IMG/VR virus record: IMGVR_UViG_3300008954_000034
Span: 1-64,000 of that record
From: an uncultured virus (IMG/VR IMGVR_UViG_3300008954_000034)
Taxonomy: Duplodnaviria; Heunggongvirae; Uroviricota; Caudoviricetes
DNA length: 64,000 nt
Reading direction: 5' to 3' (one strand)
Part shown: positions 42,644 to 63,296 of the stretch, one piece after another
Layout of the letters: every line of letters starts with the position of its first letter
How positions within the stretch are numbered: position 1 is the stretch's first letter
The notes under the pieces: generated by a model
What the model was told of the DNA's origin: nothing
Databases searched by the model: none
Seen by the model: only the letters and a program-made list of their open reading frames with translations
Program-made: the position numbers and the translations under genes

Positions 42644-43060
42644 TCACCCTCGCAACTTCCGCTGCTGGATGATATCCTCTTCGGTTGGAAAGTTAATCTC
42701 CTTCCGCTCTTCGGCGGTCAGATACCGAGCACCGAGCCAGCGGCACACATAGTCAACAATACTCGTGGCTATCGGAATCTCGCCTTGATTGTCGGTCATT
42801 CCCTGTGGTTCAAATCGAGAGAACAGCCCCTTTGAAATAATCGCCTTGAGTGGAACACCATACTGCAAAGATATGGAAAGCACAGTCGCCCACGAGTCAT
42901 AAGCACCTGACAGCGCGGTCCCCTCCTTGTCAATGTGAATGAATACCTCACCGAGACTACCGTCTTCATAAAGACCAGCAACGATAGACCCGGCAACACC
43001 ACCAATATTAAACTCGTGCTTTACAGATTCACGAGTATCCGGTAAGCGACGCCGGTTCAT
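42644..43060 (-). CDS. Stand-alone TSCPD domain (class II RNR C-terminal-like) protein
   Basis: RRRLPDTRESVKHEF...GLYEDGSLGEVFI...KEG...SLQYGVPL...RFEPQGMT...ATSIVDY. Confidence 0.8.
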   Translation of the reverse strand: MNRRRLPDTRESVKHEFNIGGVAGSIVAGLYEDGSLGEVFIHIDKEGTALSGAYDSWATVLSISLQYGVPLKAIISKGLFSRFEPQGMTDNQGEIPIATSIVDYVCRWLGARYLTAEERKEINFPTEEDIIQQRKLRG

Positions 43061-43857
43061 GCAACTTCCTCCCAACCGTAAGACATCACAAAGTCAAGCC
43101 GGTCGGTTCCCCGCTGACGTCGGCGAACGTCAGTGCCCTCACGAGAGCCCGCTGCATTCGTATTACCTTCGATAGTGGTAACAACACCAGACTCAATGAA
43201 TTCTTCCACGAATCCAATATGAGTCCAGTCTTCACCACTACGATGAACCATAAACAATGACCCCGAAACCTGCTCAGGGATCTGAGGAAGATCGGCAAAC
43301 GCACCTCGAGTCTTTGCCCATTTTGCAATTTCGTCAACCGACCACCCGGGAAGATCCCACAGTGAGTTACCAAACTTCCGCGTTCCGGTAAGATTGTACA
43401 GAGCTTGGCGAGTACAGAAAGTCACAAACCCAGCACACCATGGAAAGTCCTTACCTGTATGTCCATCCATGTAAAGCGCCACCCACGGACCAGTGTTGTT
43501 GGTAAGCTCATGGGCTTTGTTTGCCAGATGCTGTCGTGCGTATTGAAGAGCAAGAGCTGGAATGGAACGGGAGTGGTGGGTCTCAACCCAGTTTGCTACA
43601 GCTTCTTCATCCTTGAGAATAGGCTGAAGTGCGTTGTACATCGGGTGGCGGAGTGCTGCCCACGTGATCTCGTCACAGATGTCGTACCCGGTGATTTTGA
43701 GCAGTGCCGCCTGCGTCGCTGGACCGAAGTCCTCGTCAATTTCAACCCACAGGTCGCGTAGACACAACCATTCCTGCATCAGCTTAACGTCGCTGCCGCT
43801 GGCTCCACGGTATAAATTCGGGGGACTTTTCAGTTCTATCATGGAGTCGTACATCAA
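43057..43857 (-). CDS. Endolysin: peptidoglycan-binding domain plus CHAP amidase/peptidase
   Basis: GASGSDVKLMQ...DFGPATQAA; PWCAGFV (Cys), HIGFV (His), TIEGNT. Confidence 0.85.
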   Translation of the reverse strand: MMYDSMIELKSPPNLYRGASGSDVKLMQEWLCLRDLWVEIDEDFGPATQAALLKITGYDICDEITWAALRHPMYNALQPILKDEEAVANWVETHHSRSIPALALQYARQHLANKAHELTNNTGPWVALYMDGHTGKDFPWCAGFVTFCTRQALYNLTGTRKFGNSLWDLPGWSVDEIAKWAKTRGAFADLPQIPEQVSGSLFMVHRSGEDWTHIGFVEEFIESGVVTTIEGNTNAAGSREGTDVRRRQRGTDRLDFVMSYGWEEVA

Positions 43858-52299: not shown

Positions 52300-55200
52300 T
52301 CAGATACCACTACACCCCGTGTCCGTTCCACAGTTCGGGCACCGGTGGCATGCTCCGTTTGGAACCATTATAGTTCCACACCCACCACACACAGGGCCTG
52401 CGTCTGCGGAAACCATAGCCGGAACCGACTGGATGGGTTCCATGGAAACGTTGTGCATCGTTACGTTCGGCATTGCTGGACGAGACGCAGCAAACGATAC
52501 GTTTTTAAATTCACCGTTACCGTTACCATTTCCGACAAGGTACTCTTCCGGTAACTCTTGGAAGGTGTGCATCTCCGGTACTTCAACTGGTGGGTTGTAT
52601 GTCAGGTACAGCCACTTGAAAATGTAATCTATAATACTGTCGGCTTCCTTGATGTCTTGGTTGGGGGTAAATCCATGCGGCTCAAATCTCATACCAGTAA
52701 ATCGGTCTACAAAGGTCTGCAATGGAATACCATGCTGGAACCCCAACGTAACCGCAGCGGCAAAGGCGTCAAGCAGCCCAGACAACGTTGACCCCTCCTT
52801 CGATATCACAACCATCAACGAAGATGGGAGACCGTCCGGATACTTACTCACCGACACGTACCCCTCGTGCCCGGAAACGTTGAACTTGTGCGTGATTGCC
52901 TTGGCGTCCCCGATAACCGGACGTGGTAGTGGAATGACAACTTCGTACTCCGGAGTTGCGTCATCACCCTCGCTCTTCGACGCGTAGGGCTGAATTGCCT
53001 TACACCCGTCACGATAAATGGACATCACCTTGATGCCCATTTCCCAGCCCTTCCAGTACACCTCTTCGATGTCCTCGACCGTGGCCGTATTTGGCATGTT
53101 GATAGTCTTCGAAACCGCTCCAGATAGGAAAGGTTGCACAGCTGCGACCATCTTCACATGGTCCATGTAGTGGATACTGCGCTCCCCGTTAAGCGGGGGA
53201 ATGGAACAATCGAATACTGGCAGGTGGTCATCCTTCAAATCTGGGCAGTTCTCGATGGTACCGTTGTCCGTCACGTAGTTAGCAATACTCGCAACGGCAT
53301 CGTCATCGTATCCGAGTGTGCGGAGGGCCTCGGGAACCAACCGGTTAACCATCTTCATCTCGCCGCCACCCACCAGACGTTTGAACTTAACAAGACCGAA
53401 CTCCGGTTCAATGCCGGTGGTGTCAGCGTCCATCATAAACGCAATAGTGTTGTGGCTCACAAACCCAGATACAACATAGGTGTTATTCATCGGGACTGAA
53501 AGGTCAACGGTCTTTTGAATACCAGCTTGGGTATTGGAAACTACAACATCGAAGTATACATCTCCGAGACTCAAAATCGCTGCGATTTTAGTTTTTCTTA
53601 GCTGCGGGTACTTACTTATCTTATCCCTTGCCCATAGTAGATTTATCGCCGCAGTTTTTCTTACTGCAATGTCCTGCCTTACTTCACTTGGAAGACCAAC
53701 AGACGCATCATAAAAGTCTTGCTGTATCACTGCATTCCTTATTGATATCCCGTGAGATTCATCGCCTGTACTGGTCGAAAGTCCGTCAGTGAGTCGGATT
53801 TTCTTCCTAGATGAAATAAATCCTATCTTATCAGCGTACACCCGTGCCGATCTTACGTTTGCCACACGAACTTCGTACCGCTGCTTATCACCAAATCTAT
53901 CTCCACTTTCTGGCTGTTGCCTCCGTGTAGTCATAATACCCAGAGACTCTAAAACAACCTGAACCTGATTAACAAGAACAGGACTCACTGTTGAAAACGC
54001 TACGCTAGGAGTTCCTTTCACCAATGTTACTGTACCATCAGCGTCAAATAACCCACGGATGAAGGCACAAACAACACTTGTGCGAGACTTAAGAATGGAA
54101 ATGGGTATTGATGCACCAAACGCCCCCTCCCCGTGGTTTCCTCTTGGTTTATCTGCAAGCCTGTTTGACTTAAGCCAGCGGACTAGTCTCCGAGATGGAA
54201 TCGTTACAGTATGACAGCCTGATCGTTCTTCAGACTGTATATGAACTCCAATACTTTCTGCCCATGACTCAAAAACTGAGTCTATATCTCTGTTATTATT
54301 AGGCACGGTAAGACAAAGACCATAGTTATCCTTAGTGTATCCATTGCCAACATAGTAACCAATGACCTCAGCCAGACGTTCATCAAGGACGTCTGGAAAA
54401 GTAATAGAAGATTCATTTCCATGTACTGGTGTTGAATCACCATGAAGAACTGTATAGGGCTTATCCATCAAAAGTTCTTCATGCCCACCAAGCCTGAAAA
54501 CCGCGAGATCGCCCGGCTTGATATCTTGGAACTTCCTCCACACATACTCACCACATTCATCAATAATACGAATCTTGTGGCCGTAAGTACCTACTAGCGC
54601 ATGCCCACGCTTCGTGGTAATTTCCATCACGTGGTCTTCTCCGTTAATGAAAAACTGAGAAGACTTCTCTACCGACTTCTCCTGCATGATATTAAGATCA
54701 AGGTCCTGCCACTTATCACCGTTTACGTCTCCAAGTACTCCCAGCGGAAGAATACCAGCAGATGACAATAACATAGTATCCGTAGCCAAACAGCCTGTAG
54801 GAGCCAGCAGCGTAAGCTGACCATTTCGAATCCCAGCCCCATGGGCAATAGAATTGCATACGTCAGCAAGGATGGTATTTGCCATGTCATATATCGGAGC
54901 AGTAAATCCATCAAGATCAAGGCCAAGACTCTCTGCGGCTGTCCGATGCTTTTCCATAACCCGCAAGTACGGGTCTCTATTCTCTTCAAACAGATCAAAT
55001 GGTCCGAGTTCATCTGCAACCTGACAGCTCATACTGGCGGCTGACGCGTGCATCAGCGCCGTTATAGCAGCGGCAACCCGACGTCCGTCCTCTGACCCAT
55101 ACGGAAGGCCCAGAACCATAAGCAGCCCACCGAGGTTGGCGTAACCAAGGCCCAACGGCCTGTGTGCCTTGCTGTTCCTTGCAATCTCCTCGGTCGGGTA

Positions 55201-56412
55201 GTCGACATTGGCAACCATGATCTCTTGTGCAAGGATGATGAGTTCCGATGCTCTACGGAAACGGTCCACTGCAAACGCACCGTCTTCGGTCTTGTACCTG
55301 ATGAGGTTATGGCTGGCAAGGTTACAGGCAGAGTTATTGATGTAGTGATACTCAGCACACGGATTACTGGCACCGAAGTAATGAGTGTTACTGACTGGGT
55401 TCCACATGTTTATCAGGGTGTCAAACTGAAGCCCCGGGTCTCCGGTCTCCCATGCGTTCTCTGCGATGGACCGGAAAAGGTCGGCTGCGTGGATCGTGTC
55501 TGACGTCTCTCCGTCGGTCACCCGTTTGAGATCCCAGTCTGACTTGTCGGCCACGGCCCGCATGAAGTCGTCTCCAACCCGAACACTGTGATTGGCATTC
55601 TGGTAGGCTACAGTTCCGTACGCATCGCCGTCAAGGCCACTACTATACCCAGCCGCTAAAAGATCACGGGCCTTCTGGTCTTCCTTGGTCTTGCACTTAA
55701 TGAAGTCTACGATGTCTGGGTGATCAATGTTCAGGATGATAATCTTTGCCGCACGTCGAGTACGGCCACCCGACTTAATTACACCAGCAAAGGCGTCGTA
55801 CCCCTTCATAAAGCTCACCGGGCCACTGGCCTTACCACCAGTTCCGGAAAGAGACTCGGTAGAACCACGAAGGGTGCTGAGGTTTACCCCAGCACCCGAC
55901 CCGCCTTTGAATATGATTGCCTCGTCCCGGGCCAGCTTCATTATTGATTCCATGCTGTCATCAACCTCGTTGATGAAGCATGCACTGGCCTGCTGAGGAC
56001 CGTCCGCACCAATATTAAACCACACCGGACTGTTGAAGGCAAAGTACTGGTTGATCAACAGCCAAGTCAGCTCATCAGAGAATGCCTCGGCGTCGTCAGC
56101 ATGGAAGTAACCGCCGTGTAAACCCCACTGCGTAATGGTACTGACAACCCGATTAATAACCTGCTTGATCGACGTCTCGCGCTGGGACGTTCCGGGTTCA
56201 CCACGAAAGTACTTAGAAACCGCGATGTTACTAGATTGATGTGACCACGTAATCGGAAATTCTACGTCTTCTTGCTTGAACACCGCTTCACCGTCAGCTC
56301 CGATAATCTTCGCGTCCCGCTTTTCCCATTCAATTTCGTCGTATGGATGAATGTCCGGATTGGAAAAGAGACGAGAGATACTTAACGCCATGGGACATCT
56401 CCTATGGTACAA
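52300..56412 (-). CDS. nrdJ: Class II (adenosylcobalamin-dependent) ribonucleotide reductase, intein-containing
   Basis: FNSPVWFN, SACFI, GGRTRRAAK, SNPCAEY, CNLAS, APTG|TI, SGAVSKTINMP; C-terminal TSCPD domain and Zn ribbon. Start probably MALSISR. Confidence 0.93.
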   Translation of the reverse strand: MYHRRCPMALSISRLFSNPDIHPYDEIEWEKRDAKIIGADGEAVFKQEDVEFPITWSHQSSNIAVSKYFRGEPGTSQRETSIKQVINRVVSTITQWGLHGGYFHADDAEAFSDELTWLLINQYFAFNSPVWFNIGADGPQQASACFINEVDDSMESIMKLARDEAIIFKGGSGAGVNLSTLRGSTESLSGTGGKASGPVSFMKGYDAFAGVIKSGGRTRRAAKIIILNIDHPDIVDFIKCKTKEDQKARDLLAAGYSSGLDGDAYGTVAYQNANHSVRVGDDFMRAVADKSDWDLKRVTDGETSDTIHAADLFRSIAENAWETGDPGLQFDTLINMWNPVSNTHYFGASNPCAEYHYINNSACNLASHNLIRYKTEDGAFAVDRFRRASELIILAQEIMVANVDYPTEEIARNSKAHRPLGLGYANLGGLLMVLGLPYGSEDGRRVAAAITALMHASAASMSCQVADELGPFDLFEENRDPYLRVMEKHRTAAESLGLDLDGFTAPIYDMANTILADVCNSIAHGAGIRNGQLTLLAPTGCLATDTMLLSSAGILPLGVLGDVNGDKWQDLDLNIMQEKSVEKSSQFFINGEDHVMEITTKRGHALVGTYGHKIRIIDECGEYVWRKFQDIKPGDLAVFRLGGHEELLMDKPYTVLHGDSTPVHGNESSITFPDVLDERLAEVIGYYVGNGYTKDNYGLCLTVPNNNRDIDSVFESWAESIGVHIQSEERSGCHTVTIPSRRLVRWLKSNRLADKPRGNHGEGAFGASIPISILKSRTSVVCAFIRGLFDADGTVTLVKGTPSVAFSTVSPVLVNQVQVVLESLGIMTTRRQQPESGDRFGDKQRYEVRVANVRSARVYADKIGFISSRKKIRLTDGLSTSTGDESHGISIRNAVIQQDFYDASVGLPSEVRQDIAVRKTAAINLLWARDKISKYPQLRKTKIAAILSLGDVYFDVVVSNTQAGIQKTVDLSVPMNNTYVVSGFVSHNTIAFMMDADTTGIEPEFGLVKFKRLVGGGEMKMVNRLVPEALRTLGYDDDAVASIANYVTDNGTIENCPDLKDDHLPVFDCSIPPLNGERSIHYMDHVKMVAAVQPFLSGAVSKTINMPNTATVEDIEEVYWKGWEMGIKVMSIYRDGCKAIQPYASKSEGDDATPEYEVVIPLPRPVIGDAKAITHKFNVSGHEGYVSVSKYPDGLPSSLMVVISKEGSTLSGLLDAFAAAVTLGFQHGIPLQTFVDRFTGMRFEPHGFTPNQDIKEADSIIDYIFKWLYLTYNPPVEVPEMHTFQELPEEYLVGNGNGNGEFKNVSFAASRPAMPNVTMHNVSMEPIQSVPAMVSADAGPVCGGCGTIMVPNGACHRCPNCGTDTGCSGI
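53449..54792 (-). mobile_element. Intein (448 aa) with LAGLIDADG homing endonuclease in nrdJ
   Basis: Starts CLATDT after APTG and ends VSHN before T; IGYYVGNG and FIRGLFDADG motifs; AT-richer than the exteins. Confidence 0.93.
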
Positions 56413-60054: not shown

Positions 60055-60109
60055 ACATCAACATGATAAAGAAAAACCCCTACAGGGTCAAGTGCTCCTG
60101 TAGAGGTTT
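60055..60109 (-). promoter_or_regulatory. Overlapping terminator/promoter TTGACC-N17-TATCAT
   Basis: Stem ACCTCTACAGG/CCTGTAGGGGT plus T-tract; the -35 lies in the loop. Confidence 0.75.
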
Positions 60110-60126
60110 GTGGGGTTCCGGTCGTT

Positions 60127-60441
60127 TTACTTTGGTTCGGTCGCCTGTGTCAGGGCGGCAAGATTTACGTGATATGTCTTGGAAGTCCAAGAGTTGCCTT
60201 CGTAGTCAAGTTCAAAAACCAGCTCGGTCTCGCCCTTGGCGATCTTCTCGCCGGTGATCCGGCAGCGGGCTCGGCCAGTTGCGGTCTTTATCTCGATCAG
60301 GCTGTTCGGGTTGAACCAAGGTGTGCGGCTGATGATGGTGTCCTTATCTCCCCGCACACTGTTGCGATGGTTTTCATAAGCCTCTGCAAGTTCGTGAATC
60401 TCGTTTGCGGGCAGGGTCTTGAATTCGGTCTTGGTTTCCAT
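60127..60441 (-). CDS. Small early protein with PARP-Zn-finger-like motif
   Basis: Start METKTEF after GGAGG; ATGRARCRITGEKIAKGE. Confidence 0.55.
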   Translation of the reverse strand: METKTEFKTLPANEIHELAEAYENHRNSVRGDKDTIISRTPWFNPNSLIEIKTATGRARCRITGEKIAKGETELVFELDYEGNSWTSKTYHVNLAALTQATEPK

Positions 60442-60468
60442 GGGGCGTCCTCCGGGGTTGTTTACTTT

Positions 60469-60536
60469 GCACATGTACATGATAACACAAAGCGAGCCGG
60501 AAAGCAACCTCATGTACATGAGATGCTCTCCGGCTC
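60469..60536 (-). promoter_or_regulatory. Overlapping tmRNA terminator / promoter TTGCTT-N17-TATCAT
   Basis: Long hairpin GAGCCGGAGAGCA...TGCTTTCCGGCTC just after the tmRNA 3' end. Confidence 0.7.
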
Positions 60537-60550
60537 TTAAGCGAGGATAC

Positions 60551-60899
60551 TGGTGGAGACGTGGGGAATCGAACCCCAGTCCGAATGGTTTTACCAACCC
60601 CATTCTACGTGCGTAGTCTACTCAGACCGCAGACAGGTCATCACCGTGTATTTTGTGCTCCGGGACACGATAAAACCGGATCAACACAACCCAGAGGATT
60701 GAAGTGCCGACATTTGTCGACCGGAAATCCTGAGTCGCTATCGGCTTGCTACTCAGGGTCCGGGAGATGACTACTGTTTAAGCAGCCGCTCTCAAGGGAG
60801 TTTGCTCTTCAGCAATTATGGATGTTCTGCCCTCTTGCAGTTGGACAGCCACTGGCACGCATGAAATCAACTTACCACCCGTCGAAACCAATCGTCCCC
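60551..60899 (-). ncRNA. ssrA: tmRNA; tag peptide (A)AEEQTPLRAAA
   Basis: 5' GGGGACGATTGGTTTCGAC; 3' GGGGTTCGATTCCCCACGTCTCCACCA; G3.U pair in the acceptor stem; ATAATT-GCT resume context; tag ORF at 60778-60813. Confidence 0.93.
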
Positions 60900-60927
60900 G
60901 CTTGTGAAAGATCAATGGTACAAACTT

Positions 60928-61428
60928 CTATTCACCGTCAGCTAGTGTACGCTGTGAATTCTTAATCACCGTCTGCACTGAATCAGCTGCGGCTGTCATT
61001 CCAGCCCGGTAGTACAAGTTACCTAAAAACCAGCGGAAGAAGTTAATGCCTTGTAACGTACCGGCAGTAGCCTCTTCCCCCTGTAAGAGCAGCTGTTCCT
61101 CCCATCTCGGAAGGATCAGCTCCATCGCAGTTACAGTCACAATAGGAGAAACTGATCTGTGGTCGGCGAGCTGGTAATAGCAATATACAGTCACCGCTCT
61201 ATCACGGAGTGCGTTGATCGACTCAGGTCCAAACAACGTGACTGCCAGCTCAGCAGCTGCACTCGAGTTAGTATAAGCAACATAAAAGTTCTCGTCAAGC
61301 GCATCGTAGTAAGCAGTCACACGTAGTGACTTATACAAGAGCTCGTCCATACTCAGTTCTTGCTCTGGTTGGCCCAGAACCATGGAAGTGAGCATTAACG
61401 ATAATAGCAATGTCAAGATGTACTTCAT
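60928..61428 (-). CDS. Secreted hypothetical protein
   Basis: N-terminal signal peptide MKYILTLLLSLMLTSMVLG. Confidence 0.55.
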   Translation of the reverse strand: MKYILTLLLSLMLTSMVLGQPEQELSMDELLYKSLRVTAYYDALDENFYVAYTNSSAAAELAVTLFGPESINALRDRAVTVYCYYQLADHRSVSPIVTVTAMELILPRWEEQLLLQGEEATAGTLQGINFFRWFLGNLYYRAGMTAAADSVQTVIKNSQRTLADGE

Positions 61429-61449
61429 GGTCTTCTATCCTGTTAGACT

Positions 61450-61514
61450 GAGACGGTGCAGCCCTATTAGCAACCAAGCACGTGGCTGGTGCAGGATGGA
61501 TACTGCACCGTCTC
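61450..61514 (-). ncRNA. Unassigned stem-closed RNA element
   Basis: Perfect 12-bp stem GAGACGGTGCAG/CTGCACCGTCTC. Confidence 0.45.
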
Positions 61515-61575
61515 TTAATCGAACCCGGTGCCGCGAGATTCCACCTCGTGGAAAGGTTCAATGGGTTGTCAAAGT

Positions 61576-61666
61576 CTGGTGGTCGACTGGTTCTCCGGAG
61601 GAGTCGTTCCCCAGCCTCTGGAACAGAGCCGCAGCGCTCCTCACACTACGGTTGCCCCACCACCAG
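61576..61666 (-). ncRNA. Unassigned ~90-nt structured RNA
   Basis: Closing stem CTGGTGGT/ACCACCAG with inner GAGGAG/CTCCTC; between tRNA-Pro and a boxA-like motif. Confidence 0.5.
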
Positions 61667-61670
61667 TTTG

Positions 61671-61746
61671 TCGGAGATACAGGATTCGAACCTGTGGCCC
61701 CCTGCTCCCAAAGCAGGTGCGCTCTACCGGACTGCGCCAATCTCCG
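61671..61746 (-). tRNA. tRNA-Pro(TGG), no encoded CCA
   Basis: CGGAGAT acceptor, CCTGC-TT-TGG-GA-GCAGG anticodon arm, GGTTCGAATCC T-arm. Confidence 0.95.
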
Positions 61747-61749
61747 ATG

Positions 61750-61859
61750 AGGAGTCACCACTTGCCCCGTTGCCCGCGTTCGCGGTTCAGCCGCTCTGTC
61801 GCCTTAATCCCCGTTTCCGGTTGAGGCCGAGAGCCAACGTTGGGTTCGTGACAACCCCT
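61750..61859 (-). ncRNA. Unassigned ~110-nt branched structured RNA
   Basis: 12-bp closing stem with G.U pairs; GCTCT/AGAGC, CCG-GAAA-CGG and CCGC/GCGG hairpins. Confidence 0.55.
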
Positions 61860-61875
61860 GTCTGATTGTCAAAGT

Positions 61876-62166
61876 AACCTGCTGATAATACTACCTACAC
61901 CCCACATTACACCAATGCTGCGGGGAGGCCAGTACCGGTTACCAACCACCGCGCACTACAAAGGTTCATCTGACAGCCATCGACGCAGATGTTAGCGTCA
62001 GAATGGGTCACCCACTCCCACATTCCTCAATAGTATCCAACCGTAGTCAGCGCCAGAAAAGGAAAGTGTTAGTCTCCAGTTCTATTGATCTACGATCTGA
62101 GGTAGCAAGGACTCCACATCGTTCCACAGAACTTCGGACGGTCCTTGGTCTCGTATTCAGCAGGTT
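61876..62166 (-). ncRNA. Unassigned ~290-nt structured RNA
   Basis: Ends pair (AACCTGCTGAATAC / GTATTATCAGCAGGTT); internal stems CAAGGAC/GTCCTTG, GGAGTGGG/CCCATTCT, CCCCGCA/TGTGGGG; no sense ORF of 60 aa or more. Confidence 0.55.
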
Positions 62167-62176
62167 GTCAAAGAAC
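62165..62176 (-). promoter_or_regulatory. boxA-like antitermination motif GTTCTTTGACAA (similar motifs at 61866-61875, 61566-61575, 60902-60913)
   Basis: Resembles the rrn boxA consensus GCTCTTTAACAA; no -10 box at promoter spacing. Confidence 0.55.
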
Positions 62177-62276
62177 GTTCCCGCTACTTGGTCCATCCAC
62201 ACGAGCGGTCAGCGTGGTTGTCGATGAGCGAGGCTATGCCATGGCTCGCTCTGGTACTAATATACGTTCAACCGGG

Positions 62277-62804
62277 CTACGCAGCAACTGCCGCCCGGAC
62301 CCTCTTCATCTCATCCTGCAACCACTCAAACTTGAGCTGTTCGAATGCTCGAAAGGCTGGAATGCACTCCGGGCCGCCGTTCCACAAGTCCGGATGATCT
62401 CGAATGGTAAGCTGGGTCGCGGTACTGCGGACCAAGTCATCCACGTGATCGAGATGGTTGATCTCGCGGCACGCCTCGTAAAGCTCAATGGCGCTGCTGT
62501 AAATCCGCAGTCCAAGCAGGTGGCTCTTGGCAGCGTACGCTGCGGCCTTCTTATCCTCGTGCCCGCTGCTGCAAATGCAAGGATAAAGACACTCTGGATC
62601 GTCCGTGTGAATCAGGAAATACCCCCAGCCATTGCGCGGGTCGCGGAAGACGACCGCTGTCTGCTTGTCGCTGGTGATGTACATCGGGGCGTAGCTGCCA
62701 CCAAGCATCTTCTGAATCTTGTGCCCGGCGTCTTGCTTGGCTGCGGTCACGTTGCGACCCTCGCCCTCAACACCGTAGTACTCGACCTTGACCTTGGTAC
62801 TCAT
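62277..62804 (-). CDS. Hypothetical early protein
   Basis: GGAGG RBS; has its own sigma70-type promoter. Confidence 0.6.
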   Translation of the reverse strand: MSTKVKVEYYGVEGEGRNVTAAKQDAGHKIQKMLGGSYAPMYITSDKQTAVVFRDPRNGWGYFLIHTDDPECLYPCICSSGHEDKKAAAYAAKSHLLGLRIYSSAIELYEACREINHLDHVDDLVRSTATQLTIRDHPDLWNGGPECIPAFRAFEQLKFEWLQDEMKRVRAAVAA

Positions 62805-62829
62805 AAAATCCTCCAGTGGTTGTTACATT

Positions 62830-62885
62830 GCACATCTACATGATAAGAAAAGCCCCTGCTGGATGCAAGCTCCAACAGAGGCTCT
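62830..62885 (-). promoter_or_regulatory. Overlapping terminator/promoter TTGCAT-N17-TATCAT
   Basis: Stem GAGCCTCTGTTGGA/TCCAGCAGGGGCTT plus T-tract; the -35 lies in the loop. Confidence 0.75.
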
Positions 62886-62901
62886 TGTATAACTTAGTGA
62901 A

Positions 62902-63207
62902 TCAGTTCATCGAGTGGTCCGCAACCTTCGGGGTCTCGACCGGGACGGGAACCAGCCGGTAGTTCTCGTCGCCCTCGGTGATGCTGCCGGACATCCGACC
63001 GCCGTTGCCACCGAAGTGAATGTAGAAGCAGCAGTAAGCCCGACCGTCGATGAGGTTGTCACCCCGGGCGTGAACTTCTGCGATCTCATACGGACCGTGG
63101 TACTTGGCGTTTGGCTTGGCCACGCTCGGCGTGGTGAAAGCCTGCATGTCGAGGGTCCACTCCAGCCACATTCCGGGCTGCAAGGATTCTACTTCGGCGC
63201 GGGTCAT
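62902..63207 (-). CDS. Hypothetical early protein
   Basis: GGAGG RBS; has its own promoter. Confidence 0.6.
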   Translation of the reverse strand: MTRAEVESLQPGMWLEWTLDMQAFTTPSVAKPNAKYHGPYEIAEVHARGDNLIDGRAYCCFYIHFGGNGGRMSGSITEGDENYRLVPVPVETPKVADHSMN

Positions 63208-63243
63208 GGTGACCTCCGGGTTAGGTTACGGGCGGTGCCCGAT

Positions 63244-63296
63244 GCACATGTACATGATAACAAAACCCCCTATAGGATGCAAGTCCTATAGAGGAT
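63244..63296 (-). promoter_or_regulatory. Overlapping terminator/promoter TTGCAT-N17-TATCAT
   Basis: Stem CCTCTATAGGA/TCCTATAGGGG plus T-tract; the -35 lies in the loop. Confidence 0.75.

What the first reader, a model, noticed from the sequence alone, without database searches (positions are those of the whole stretch)
60551..62270. Stable-RNA operon: unassigned stem-closed RNAs punctuated by boxA-like motifs, alongside tRNA-Pro and tmRNA
Seen on the minus strand, 5' to 3': hairpin (about 62226-62251), boxA-like GTTCTTTGACAA (62165-62176), ~290-nt RNA, ACTTTGACAA (61866-61875), ~110-nt RNA, tRNA-Pro, ~90-nt RNA, ACTTTGACAA (61566-61575), ~45-nt stem-loop, 65-nt element with a perfect 12-bp stem, one ORF, GATCTTTCACAA (60902-60913), then tmRNA. 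Each unknown unit is closed by its own terminal helix, and the boxA-like motifs sit right at unit boundaries. Known: boxA recruits NusB/NusE to protect untranslated RNA from Rho. Inference: a polycistronic, processed array of phage ncRNAs, most of which I cannot assign to any family.
Basis: partly seen in the sequence, partly recalled or inferred. Interest (0 to 1): 0.8.

Follow-up and report, generated by a model that had tools for sequence, protein, structure and literature searches.

The report
Phage stable-RNA operon with rRNA-type boxA
An uncultured marine phage transcribes a tRNA, a tmRNA and several folded RNAs of no known family as one unit that carries the short signal bacteria place before their ribosomal RNA genes, so it probably uses the host's rRNA transcription machinery to make its own stable RNAs.

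Summary
tmRNA (60551-60899) and tRNA-Pro(UGG) (61670-61746) are confirmed. The 847 nt between ORF175 and ORF166 are non-coding by codon usage. Five stem-closed units (B-F) match no Rfam family.

The first motif, GTTCTTTGACAA, is letter for letter a real rRNA-leader boxA type: TCTTTGACAA lies 110-140 nt before 16S in at least 120 bacterial genomes, preceded by G-N in 108 of 120. The tmRNA-proximal motif differs by one base. The two middle copies (ACTTTGACAA) lack two positions of that 12-mer (one of them reported critical in E. coli and lambda) and are doubtful boxAs.

The two good boxAs sit where translation stops and untranslated RNA begins. A boxA-like motif just before a tmRNA recurs in 32 IMG/VR contigs, against 0 for a scrambled control and 0 of 452 sampled bacterial genomes.

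A marine metatranscriptome holds one 168-nt contig from this 2.5 kb, inside unit B.

No homologue of units B-F was found, so covariation could not be tested, and neither discrete ends nor function are shown.

Verdict: a real boxA-headed phage stable-RNA operon, a new variant of Nus/boxA antitermination. Whether the units are independent RNAs is shown for none of them; unit B alone has support, a single RNA contig.

The parts
62829..62868 (-). Phage early promoter of the unit: -35 TTGCAT (62863-62868) in the loop of the upstream terminator hairpin, 17 nt, -10 TATCAT (62840-62845), then GTAGATGTGCA
   Evidence: Six such promoter modules lie on the minus strand at 60068-65824 of the record. The 18-mer is found 4 times in the window against 0.09 expected.
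62277..62804 (-). ORF175, first gene of the unit; no family
   Evidence: Codon score +0.27 in frame. No Pfam or PHROG hit. One distant homologue and four IMG/VR N-terminal homologues with no RNA array downstream.
62259..62287 (-). Possible weak extra promoter: TTGCTG, 17 nt, TATATT
   Evidence: Read from the sequence. Not listed by the consensus scan. Inference only.
62226..62251 (-). Hairpin 1 (7-bp stem), boxB-like position upstream of boxA
62197..62217 (-). Hairpin 2, 20 nt upstream of boxA 1
   Evidence: fold. rRNA leaders with this boxA also show a hairpin shortly upstream (listing).
62165..62176 (-). boxA 1, GTTCTTTGACAA: canonical, about 100 nt after the ORF175 stop codon
   Evidence: Identical to the 12-mer found 110-140 nt before 16S in 22 of 120 bacterial loci; G-N-TCTTTGACAA in 108 of 120. 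10 of 11 positions match the published gamma-proteobacterial consensus GYTCTTTAANA (PMC5725501, passages).
61876..62164 (-). Unit B, 289 nt, multi-hairpin, closed by CCUGCUGA/UCAGCAGG flush with motifs 1 and 2
   Evidence: z -3.2. Terminal stem 67/5000. No Rfam hit at E<=10. No coding signal. No small-protein homologue of its 38-aa frame.
61881..62048 (-). Part of unit B present as a 168-nt contig (depth 6, 0 mismatches) in a marine metatranscriptome run; contig strand is not informative
   Evidence: run X4: the only contig on 60400-62900. It ends 3-5 nt before the predicted 3' end of B.
61866..61877 (-). Motif 2, TTACTTTGACAA: partial boxA, lacking G at position 1 and T at position 3
   Evidence: compared.
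61747..61865 (-). Unit C, 119 nt, closed by a 12-bp helix, ending 3 nt before tRNA-Pro
   Evidence: z -2.2. 0/5000. Kept in the whole-transcript fold.
61670..61746 (-). tRNA-Pro (UGG); CCA not encoded
   Evidence: sequence.
61576..61669 (-). Unit D, 94 nt, closed by CUGGUGGU/ACCACCAG flush with motif 3
   Evidence: z -2.95. 71/5000.
61566..61577 (-). Motif 3, AGACTTTGACAA: partial boxA
61517..61565 (-). Unit E, 49-nt stem-loop containing a T-loop-like GGTTCGATT
   Evidence: 59/5000.
61448..61516 (-). Unit F: 13-bp near-perfect stem (61502-61514 with 61450-61462) with alternative pairings, ending about 20 nt before the ORF166 start and just upstream of its ribosome-binding site
   Evidence: 0/5000. 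No T-run follows it.
60928..61428 (-). ORF166, orphan with an N-terminal signal-peptide-like segment
   Evidence: Codon score +0.15. No homologue other than itself. No Pfam or PHROG hit.
60902..60913 (-). boxA 4, GATCTTTCACAA: one mismatch; 14 nt after the ORF166 stop and 2 nt before tmRNA G1
   Evidence: The same layout occurs in 32 IMG/VR contigs against 0 for a scrambled control.
60551..60899 (-). tmRNA, one-piece, tag AEEQTPLRAAA*
60494..60536 (-). Terminator-like hairpin GAGCCGG...CCGGCTC followed by GCTTTGTGTT; it carries the -35 of the next promoter

Best explanation
The region is one phage transcription unit: promoter near 62845, ORF175, an 847-nt untranslated array, ORF166, tmRNA, and a terminator near 60500.

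Proposed mechanism. The nascent RNA exposes a canonical rRNA-type boxA about 100 nt after translation of ORF175 ends. A near-canonical boxA follows 14 nt after translation of ORF166 ends. Host NusB-S10 binds these and assembles an rrn-type antitermination complex with NusA, NusG and SuhB. That complex carries RNA polymerase through the untranslated, structured stretch without Rho-dependent or hairpin-induced termination. Because boxA 1 directly abuts the 5' strand of unit B's closing helix, the tethered boxA may also hold that strand near the RNA exit until the 3' strand emerges, as proposed for rRNA leader-trailer helices.

The transcript would then be cut into pieces: RNase P at the 5' ends of tRNA-Pro and tmRNA, which removes the boxA-bearing leader 2 nt upstream of tmRNA, and RNase III, RNase E or similar at the stems and spacers. 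The products would be tRNA-Pro, tmRNA and at least one abundant new RNA, unit B.

Shown: the anatomy, the identity of the motif with real rRNA boxA, non-coding status, recurrence of boxA before phage tmRNAs, and presence of part of B in an RNA library.

Inferred: Nus binding, antitermination, the tether role, the nucleases, and any function of units B-F.
For: 1. Motif 1 equals a boxA used in rRNA leaders. 108 of 120 are preceded by G-N and 22 of 120 read GTTCTTTGACAA.
2. Published consensus sequences are close: GYTCTTTAANA (PMC5725501, passages) and GTTCTTTAAAA, which is functional before a CRISPR array (PMC7862264, passages).
3. Placement fits the logic of protecting untranslated RNA. The two best boxAs follow the two stop codons of the unit, and the 847 nt between the ORFs have no coding signal (best-frame score <=0.03, against +0.14 to +0.28 for real small genes).
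4. No phage-type promoter lies between 62845 and 60484, so tmRNA and the array have no recognisable promoter of their own.
5. The arrangement recurs. TCTTTNANAA lies 0-30 nt before a tmRNA 5' pattern in 32 IMG/VR contigs, with a gap of 5 nt or less in 24 of 32 and an unrequired G at -2 in 26 of 32. ARAGORN calls a tmRNA in 27 of 32; Rfam confirms tmRNA in the 10 of 10 loci I gave it out of the 32. The scrambled control CTTTTNANAA gave 0.
6. Sampled bacteria do not show it: 0 of 301 genomes of one phylum, although 93 of 301 carry the tmRNA 5' pattern, and 0 of 151 of another phylum.
7. Terminal helices are flush with the motifs.
8. A 168-nt RNA-library contig lies inside B and ends 3-5 nt from B's predicted 3' end.
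9. The tether idea comes from PMC10250234 (passages).
Against: - Motifs 2 and 3 lack the G and U at positions 1 and 3. Transversions at the G are reported as not tolerated in lambda boxA (PMC3177189, passages).
- The host is unknown, so its own boxA could not be compared. A tmRNA BLAST against 753 genomes of three phyla matched only the conserved 3' ~35 nt.
- The array is G-rich (30% G, 25% C) with no marked C>G stretch, so strong Rho loading sites are not evident.
- The motifs are not predicted to be especially single-stranded in a whole-transcript fold.
- The closing-helix-next-to-boxA layout is strong in only 1 of 12 inter-boxA units of other phage loci.
- The RNA evidence is one small contig from an assembled library. 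Contigs cannot prove ends or strand, and the tool warns that DNA may be present in RNA libraries.
- No homologue of units B-F was found, so there is no covariation.
Confidence: 0.55

Rival explanations
1. Only tRNA-Pro, tmRNA and perhaps unit B are products. C, D, E and F are precursor leader, trailer and spacer structures. C and D would be clamps flanking the tRNA that guide or delay RNase P, RNase E or 3' trimming. E and F would form an RNase III-type or stabiliser hairpin heading the ORF166 mRNA, as between phage T7 early genes (recalled). The boxA reading is unchanged under this rival.
For: C ends 3 nt before tRNA-Pro and D starts 3 nt after it. F's 13-bp stem ends about 20 nt before the ORF166 start, just upstream of its ribosome-binding site, and has competing pairings with E. 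None of C-F appears in the RNA run. There are no homologues and no Rfam family.
Against: Absence from a 21-Mb assembled RNA library says little. C (119 nt, 12-bp closure, 0/5000) is larger and more elaborate than a typical tRNA leader.
Confidence: 0.3
2. CTTTGACAA is not a Nus site. It would instead be punctuation read by something else: a sequence-specific endoribonuclease or phage RNA-binding protein that cuts or marks unit boundaries, or a DNA-level signal such as a TTGACA -35 box or an operator.
For: The invariant core shared by three copies is CTTTGACAA, not the 5' G-Y-U that NusB contacts. The copies sit exactly at unit boundaries with 299 and 300-nt spacing. TTGACA is the sigma-70 -35 consensus.
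Against: No -10 element lies 16-18 nt after any copy (none listed). Copy 1 matches rRNA boxA in all 12 positions. The same boxA family precedes tmRNAs in 32 unrelated phage contigs with differing cores such as GAAAA, GAGAA and TAAAA, which fits boxA variation between hosts rather than one nuclease site.
Confidence: 0.1
3. The unassigned units are evolutionary debris, such as decayed tRNA genes or duplicated spacers, carried along between functional genes with no function of their own. The motifs would be leftovers of duplication.
For: Unit E holds a T-loop-like GGTTCGATT. Relaxed ARAGORN (ps80) reports a weak tRNA-like hit at 61539-61633. Relatives with ORF175-like or tail-sheath genes have no such array.
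Against: The two 300-nt periods show no sequence similarity beyond the motifs. Five of five units keep significant terminal helices. Part of B is present in RNA. Phage genomes rarely keep 850 nt of junk in a tightly packed early region.
Confidence: 0.08
4. The stretch encodes small proteins, for example the 38-aa frame 61907-62023 that the RNA contig covers, or the 51-aa frame 62047-62202.
For: Open frames exist, and the RNA contig spans the 38-aa frame.
Against: In-frame codon scores are -0.13 and -0.15, against +0.14 to +0.28 for six real small genes. The GAGGA lies 0-1 nt before the ATG, whereas the phage's genes have 4-7 nt. phmmer against 1.84 billion representatives gave only 3 hits, all repeated stretches inside proteins of 1133-1854 aa. 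There is no Pfam hit.
Confidence: 0.03

Closest known systems
Bacterial rrn operon leader and spacer: boxB hairpin, boxA, Nus-factor antitermination complex (NusB, S10, NusA, NusG, SuhB, S4), and leader-trailer helices cut by RNase III
   Same: A 12-nt boxA identical to a natural rRNA-leader variant. Hairpins lie upstream of it. boxA is directly followed by the 5' strand of a helix that closes the downstream RNA. A tRNA is embedded in the transcript. A second boxA follows further downstream, as in the 16S-23S spacer.
   Different: The products are a tRNA, a tmRNA and unknown RNAs, not rRNA. Two protein genes sit in the same unit. The closing helices are 8-13 bp, shorter than the 27 bp quoted for the 23S helix (PMC10250234, passages). 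No clear boxC was seen. The element is in a phage.
boxA upstream of CRISPR arrays and of suhB (Nus-dependent control of non-rRNA transcripts)
   Same: boxA placed ahead of a long untranslated, processed RNA array to keep polymerase going (PMC7862264 and PMC5725501, passages; Stringer et al. as cited in them, not read).
   Different: Those are chromosomal, with a single boxA in the leader. Here there are several copies inside a phage unit, one of them abutting a tmRNA.
Lambda nut sites (boxA plus boxB, N protein)
   Same: A phage transcript that carries boxA to recruit host NusB-S10.
   Different: In nut sites boxB follows boxA and binds phage N (recalled). Here the hairpins precede boxA, as in rrn leaders, and no N-like protein was identified. 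Here boxA would protect stable-RNA genes, not delayed-early mRNAs.
Phage T4 tRNA cluster with stable 'species 1 and 2' RNAs (recalled; not checked in any call)
   Same: A phage tRNA region that also yields stable RNAs of unknown function, made as a polycistronic precursor and processed by host nucleases.
   Different: No boxA is known to me in T4. There is no sequence or Rfam link.
Other boxA-headed or boxA-punctuated phage RNA arrays noted earlier in this scan (AI notes, mostly unchecked)
   Same: The same grammar of boxA before tmRNA, tRNAs and unassigned folded RNAs. My own scan found 32 IMG/VR contigs with boxA just before a tmRNA.
   Different: No sequence similarity to units B-F. Here two of the four motifs are degenerate, and two ORFs are interleaved.

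Membership tests
tmRNA (RF00023) | Covariance-model score above the curated cut-off, with tRNA-like ends and an in-frame tag reading frame | tested here: met
   122.2 bits against 47, full length 1-374. ARAGORN tag AEEQTPLRAAA*.
tRNA (RF00005) | Cloverleaf model score above cut-off, with an anticodon | tested here: met
   65.4 bits against 29; anticodon TGG.
rrn-type boxA | Sequence G-Y/N-U-C-U-U-U-R-A-N-A-A | tested here: met
   Met for motif 1 only: 12 of 12 positions equal to rRNA leaders and 10 of 11 to GYTCTTTAANA (PMC5725501). Motif 4 matches 11 of 12 (C at position 8).
rrn-type boxA | The same sequence rule applied to motifs 2 and 3 (G at position 1, U at position 3) | tested here: not met
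   TTACTTTGACAA and AGACTTTGACAA. G2, C5 and U6 are called critical in PMC3177189 (passages).
rrn-type boxA | Lies in the nascent RNA ahead of a long untranslated transcript, on the transcribed strand | tested here: met
rrn-type boxA | Binds NusB-S10 and confers resistance to Rho | not testable with these tools
   Needs binding and read-through assays.
rrn-type boxA | Matches the boxA of the host's own rRNA operons | tested here: inconclusive
   The host was not identified. tmRNA BLAST against 753 genomes of three phyla matched only the 3' ~35 nt. The tail-sheath profile found nothing in genome contigs.
rRNA-like leader-trailer (processing) helix | Complementary sequences flanking the RNA, next to boxA | tested here: met
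   B, C, D, E and F each have terminal stems seen in at most 71 of 5000 random stretches. B's is flush with motifs 1 and 2.
rRNA-like leader-trailer (processing) helix | Extended duplex long enough for RNase III (about two helical turns) | tested here: not met
   The longest contiguous stems are 8-13 bp.
Lambda nut site | boxA followed by a boxB hairpin, with a phage N-type antiterminator | tested here: not met
   The hairpins lie upstream of boxA. No PHROG or Pfam antiterminator hit among the 22 different window proteins scanned (20, 12; 10 given to both). Not all proteins of the phage were scanned.
Any Rfam family for units B-F | A covariance-model match, even a weak one | tested here: not met
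   No hit at E<=10 for 61860-62280. Only chance-level hits (E 2.3 and 7.2, plus strand) in 61430-61880.
Structured ncRNA (general criterion) | Base pairs kept by compensatory changes among homologues | not testable with these tools
   The only other copy is 100% identical. No diverged homologue was found in any collection searched.

The most novel reading that the evidence does not exclude
Phages of many hosts have independently placed the host's rRNA antitermination signal directly, 0-5 nt, in front of their own tmRNA and other stable-RNA genes. This layout is absent from the bacterial ssrA genes sampled. In this marine phage the same system drives an operon that also makes at least one abundant, structurally elaborate RNA of a wholly new family (unit B, 289 nt), possibly translation-related given its company.
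Probability: 0.35. Interest if true: 0.75.

Novelty: new variant of a known kind. Interest (0 to 1): 0.6.

Why it matters
Nus/boxA antitermination is textbook for rRNA operons and lambda, and was more recently extended to suhB and CRISPR arrays. Here a lytic-type phage appears to use an exact host-type boxA, without an N protein, to make its own tRNA, tmRNA and unknown RNAs.

The 32-to-0 result for boxA abutting phage tmRNAs suggests a general way in which phages express untranslated genes. My full-text searches found no paper linking boxA to phage tRNA or tmRNA genes.

It gives a simple sequence flag for finding phage non-coding RNA operons and, where the host's rRNA boxA is known, a hint to the host. 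It also points to a testable, abundant new RNA (unit B).

Tried and rejected
- Covariation: not possible. The only other copy (L007/G001, 127.7 kb) is 100% identical.
- Relatives by neighbouring genes. The ORF175 and ORF166 single-protein scans found only the same phage. An ORF175 profile found four IMG/VR contigs at 38-41% identity whose downstream DNA is densely coding, with no tmRNA, tRNA-Pro or motif cluster.
- Ribonucleotide reductase neighbours L010 and L011 are unrelated phages apart from two genes: the reductase and one 143-aa frame (42644-43075).
- Tail-sheath relatives (46-61% identity). The one IMG/VR relative, G002 (85 kb, 46% complete), has no tRNA, tmRNA or motif cluster. Nothing in the INPHARED phage collection. 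Nothing in genome contigs.
- An exact 23-mer from the tmRNA 3' end in viral contigs found only the same phage.
- Metagenome scan for the two-motif pattern: 16 loci, none similar to the array, no tmRNA, nearly all inside long open frames. I take these as chance matches.
- blastn of the region against INPHARED phages matched tRNA-Pro only.
- The idea that the two 300-nt periods are diverged duplicates is rejected: no similarity beyond the motifs.
- Host inference from tmRNA failed.
- RNA run X4 shows no contig on tmRNA, tRNA, the ORFs or units C-F. Absence from a small assembled library is not evidence of absence.
- The 168-nt contig folded alone has z -1.28, not significant.
- Relaxed tRNA search: only a weak 95-nt 'tRNA-Arg' across D, motif 3 and E, taken as noise.
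- The search of earlier findings by place and by sequence returned nothing.
- A BOXA1R hit in PMC9025141 is an unrelated PCR primer.
Full report
**What the window is.** The window is the first 64 kb of a 77,954-b IMG/VR virus record rated 51% complete. An identical phage is held as a 127.7-kb record, G001. PHROG hits to tail sheath, baseplate wedge, helicase and ribonucleotide reductase mark it as a large contractile-tailed phage. It has no relative in the INPHARED phage collection. Three marine metagenome runs hold it. Among the frames of 150 aa or more, those that read as genes all lie on the minus strand.

**Observation check.** ARAGORN and Rfam agree on a one-piece tmRNA at 60551-60899 (122 bits against a cut-off of 47; tag AEEQTPLRAAA*) and a tRNA-Pro(UGG) at 61670-61746.
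- Exact CTTTGACAA occurs 5 times in the whole record. Three of these lie here on one strand, 299 and 300 nt apart.
- In the 127.7-kb record, CTTTSACAA occurs 6 times, 4 of them in the array.
- Each of the five unassigned units (B 289 nt, C 119, D 94, E 49, F 69) has a terminal helix. Among 5000 random stretches of equal length from the window, a helix as good was found in 67, 0, 71, 59 and 0 cases.
- Folding z-scores run from -2.2 to -4.7.
- Caveat: in a fold of the whole transcript, B's closing helix is lost and the motifs are not especially unpaired.

**Transcription unit.** The small early genes around the array each carry the same module: a terminator hairpin with a -35 (TTGCAT or similar) in its loop, 17 nt, TATCAT, then GTACATGTGCA. 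Six copies lie on the minus strand between 60068 and 65824. None lies between 62845 and 60484. ORF175, the array, ORF166 and tmRNA therefore most simply form one unit ending at the hairpin 60494-60536. A weak TTGCTG-17-TATATT at 62259-62287 could be an additional start; that is my reading only.

**Non-coding status.** I trained a codon log-odds score on 26 long genes of the window.
- Six real small genes score +0.14 to +0.28 in frame.
- The four open frames inside the array score -0.08 to -0.15.
- The best-frame sliding score stays at or below 0.03 from 62280 to 61440.
- The 38-aa frame covered by the RNA contig has no small-protein relative among 1.84 billion representatives.
- Pfam found nothing for the 38-aa and 51-aa frames, the two array frames I gave it.

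**Known RNA families.** Rfam at the gathering threshold, and at E<=10 on three nested pieces, gives only tmRNA and tRNA plus chance-level noise.

**Is the motif boxA?** I tested this directly.
They include Acidobacteriota, Planctomycetota, Verrucomicrobiota, Gammaproteobacteria, Bacteroidota, Campylobacterota and Actinomycetota.
- In 108 of these 120 the two preceding bases are G-N, which the search did not require. 22 read GTTCTTTGACAA, exactly motif 1. Many have a hairpin a few bases upstream.
- This agrees with the published gamma-proteobacterial consensus GYTCTTTAANA (PMC5725501, passages) and with a functional CRISPR-leader boxA, GTTCTTTAAAA (PMC7862264, passages).
- Motif 4 (GATCTTTCACAA) differs at one position.
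- Motifs 2 and 3 (TTACTTTGACAA, AGACTTTGACAA) lack the G and the U at positions 1 and 3. G2, C5 and U6 are described as critical in lambda and E. coli (PMC3177189, passages). They keep only the CUUUGACAA core and I do not count them as established boxAs.

**Placement.** Motif 1 lies about 100 nt after the ORF175 stop codon, behind two hairpins, at the head of 847 untranslated nt. Motif 4 lies 14 nt after the ORF166 stop and 2 nt before tmRNA G1. Both good boxAs thus sit where ribosomes leave the transcript. That fits the established role of boxA and Nus factors in shielding untranslated RNA from Rho. The array itself is not C-rich (30% G, 25% C), so strong Rho entry sites are not obvious.

**Recurrence in other phages.**
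- A scan of IMG/VR for TCTTTNANAA within 0-30 nt of a tmRNA 5' pattern gave 32 contigs.
- In 24 of 32 the gap is 5 nt or less. In 26 of 32 an unrequired G stands at -2. ARAGORN calls a tmRNA in 27 of 32, often next to tRNAs.
- Rfam confirmed tmRNA in all 10 of the 32 loci that I submitted.
- The same scan with the first five bases permuted (CTTTTNANAA) gave 0.
- In 301 sampled genomes of the phylum of a Gammaproteobacteria MAG, the combined pattern was found in 0, although 93 carry the tmRNA 5' pattern.
- In 151 genomes of the phylum of a Clostridia MAG it was found in 0. The denominator was not measured there.
- The window's own tmRNA has one base fewer in the 5' pattern and so lies outside this count.
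- Several of the 32 contigs carry two or three canonical boxAs. A strong closing helix flush with the boxAs is seen in only 1 of 12 inter-boxA units (L173, 12 bp, 1/2000).

**Expression.** One RNA-seq run of the same study (21 Mb, held as contigs) has a single contig on the 2.5 kb laid. It is 168 nt, depth 6, with no mismatch, at 61881-62048, inside unit B. It ends 3-5 nt before B's predicted 3' end. Uniform DNA carry-over would not single out 168 nt. Still, contigs show neither strand nor true ends, and the tool warns that DNA can be present in RNA libraries. Folded alone, this piece is not unusually stable (z -1.28).

**Homologues.** None was found for units B-F by any route: neighbouring proteins, a tail-sheath profile, exact tmRNA words, the two-motif pattern in metagenomes, or blastn against phages and against the 32 boxA-tmRNA loci.

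**Mechanism.** My confidence in this reading is 0.55. Host NusB-S10 binds boxA 1, and again boxA 4, and converts RNA polymerase into an rrn-type antitermination complex that reads through the structured, untranslated stretch. The tethered boxA may help the adjacent 5' strand find its 3' partner, as proposed for rRNA leader-trailer helices (PMC10250234, passages). Host nucleases then release tRNA-Pro, tmRNA and unit B. Motif identity, layout, non-coding status, recurrence and partial RNA presence are shown. Binding, antitermination, processing and function are inferred.

The main rival (0.3) keeps the boxA reading but treats C-F as leader, trailer and spacer structures rather than RNAs in their own right. 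Other readings score lower: a nuclease or DNA site (0.1), debris (0.08), small ORFs (0.03).

**Relation to what is known.** The element works like an rrn leader and spacer and like boxA-led CRISPR arrays. It is not a lambda nut site, because the hairpins precede boxA and no N-like protein was seen among the proteins scanned. Two full-text searches found no paper linking boxA to phage tRNA or tmRNA genes; supplements were not examined. Earlier AI notes of this scan describe similar boxA-headed RNA arrays in eight other phage genomes. I used them as leads only and tested the tmRNA case myself.

**Verdict.** This is a new variant of a known kind. Interest 0.6.

Noticed in passing
window 60068-63260 and record 64441, 65824 (minus strand): The early genes use a fused terminator-promoter module. 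The -35 (TTGCAT, TTGCTT or TTGACC) sits in the loop or 3' arm of the upstream terminator hairpin, followed by 17 nt, TATCAT and a conserved GTACATGTGCA start region. There are six copies in 6 kb.
   Followed up: partly
window 60778-60813 (tmRNA tag region): The phage tmRNA tag ends in RAAA rather than the usual ALAA/LAA. Whether proteins tagged by it are still delivered to the host's tail-specific proteases is open (the usual ending is recalled, not tested).
   Followed up: no
L168, L172, L188, L173 (IMG/VR loci): tmRNA is accompanied by a tRNA-Pro(UGG) 74-82% identical to the window's in four other phage contigs. This may be a recurrent tmRNA plus tRNA-Pro pairing.
   Followed up: no
L176:1499-2464: Two tandem units start with the same 50 nt (boxA GTTCTTTGACAA, then TAT, then a tmRNA-like 5' end). 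Only the second is called as tmRNA by ARAGORN and Rfam, so the first may be a diverged or truncated tmRNA copy.
   Followed up: no
L173:1041-1498: A 458-nt stretch with no Rfam hit lies between two boxAs directly upstream of a phage tmRNA. It is closed by a 12-bp helix whose 5' strand abuts the first boxA and whose 3' strand ends 6 nt before the second (1/2000 by chance), the closest architectural analogue of unit B.
   Followed up: partly
window 52300-56412: The ribonucleotide reductase large subunit frame is 1370 aa. Its PHROG matches cover mainly residues 61-644, and relatives align in separate blocks, so it may carry an insertion such as an intein or extra domains.
   Followed up: no
window 60928-61428: ORF166, sitting between the RNA genes, is an orphan with a signal-peptide-like N-terminus. 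Public gene calls start it 15 codons later (151 aa), which would remove that segment.
   Followed up: partly
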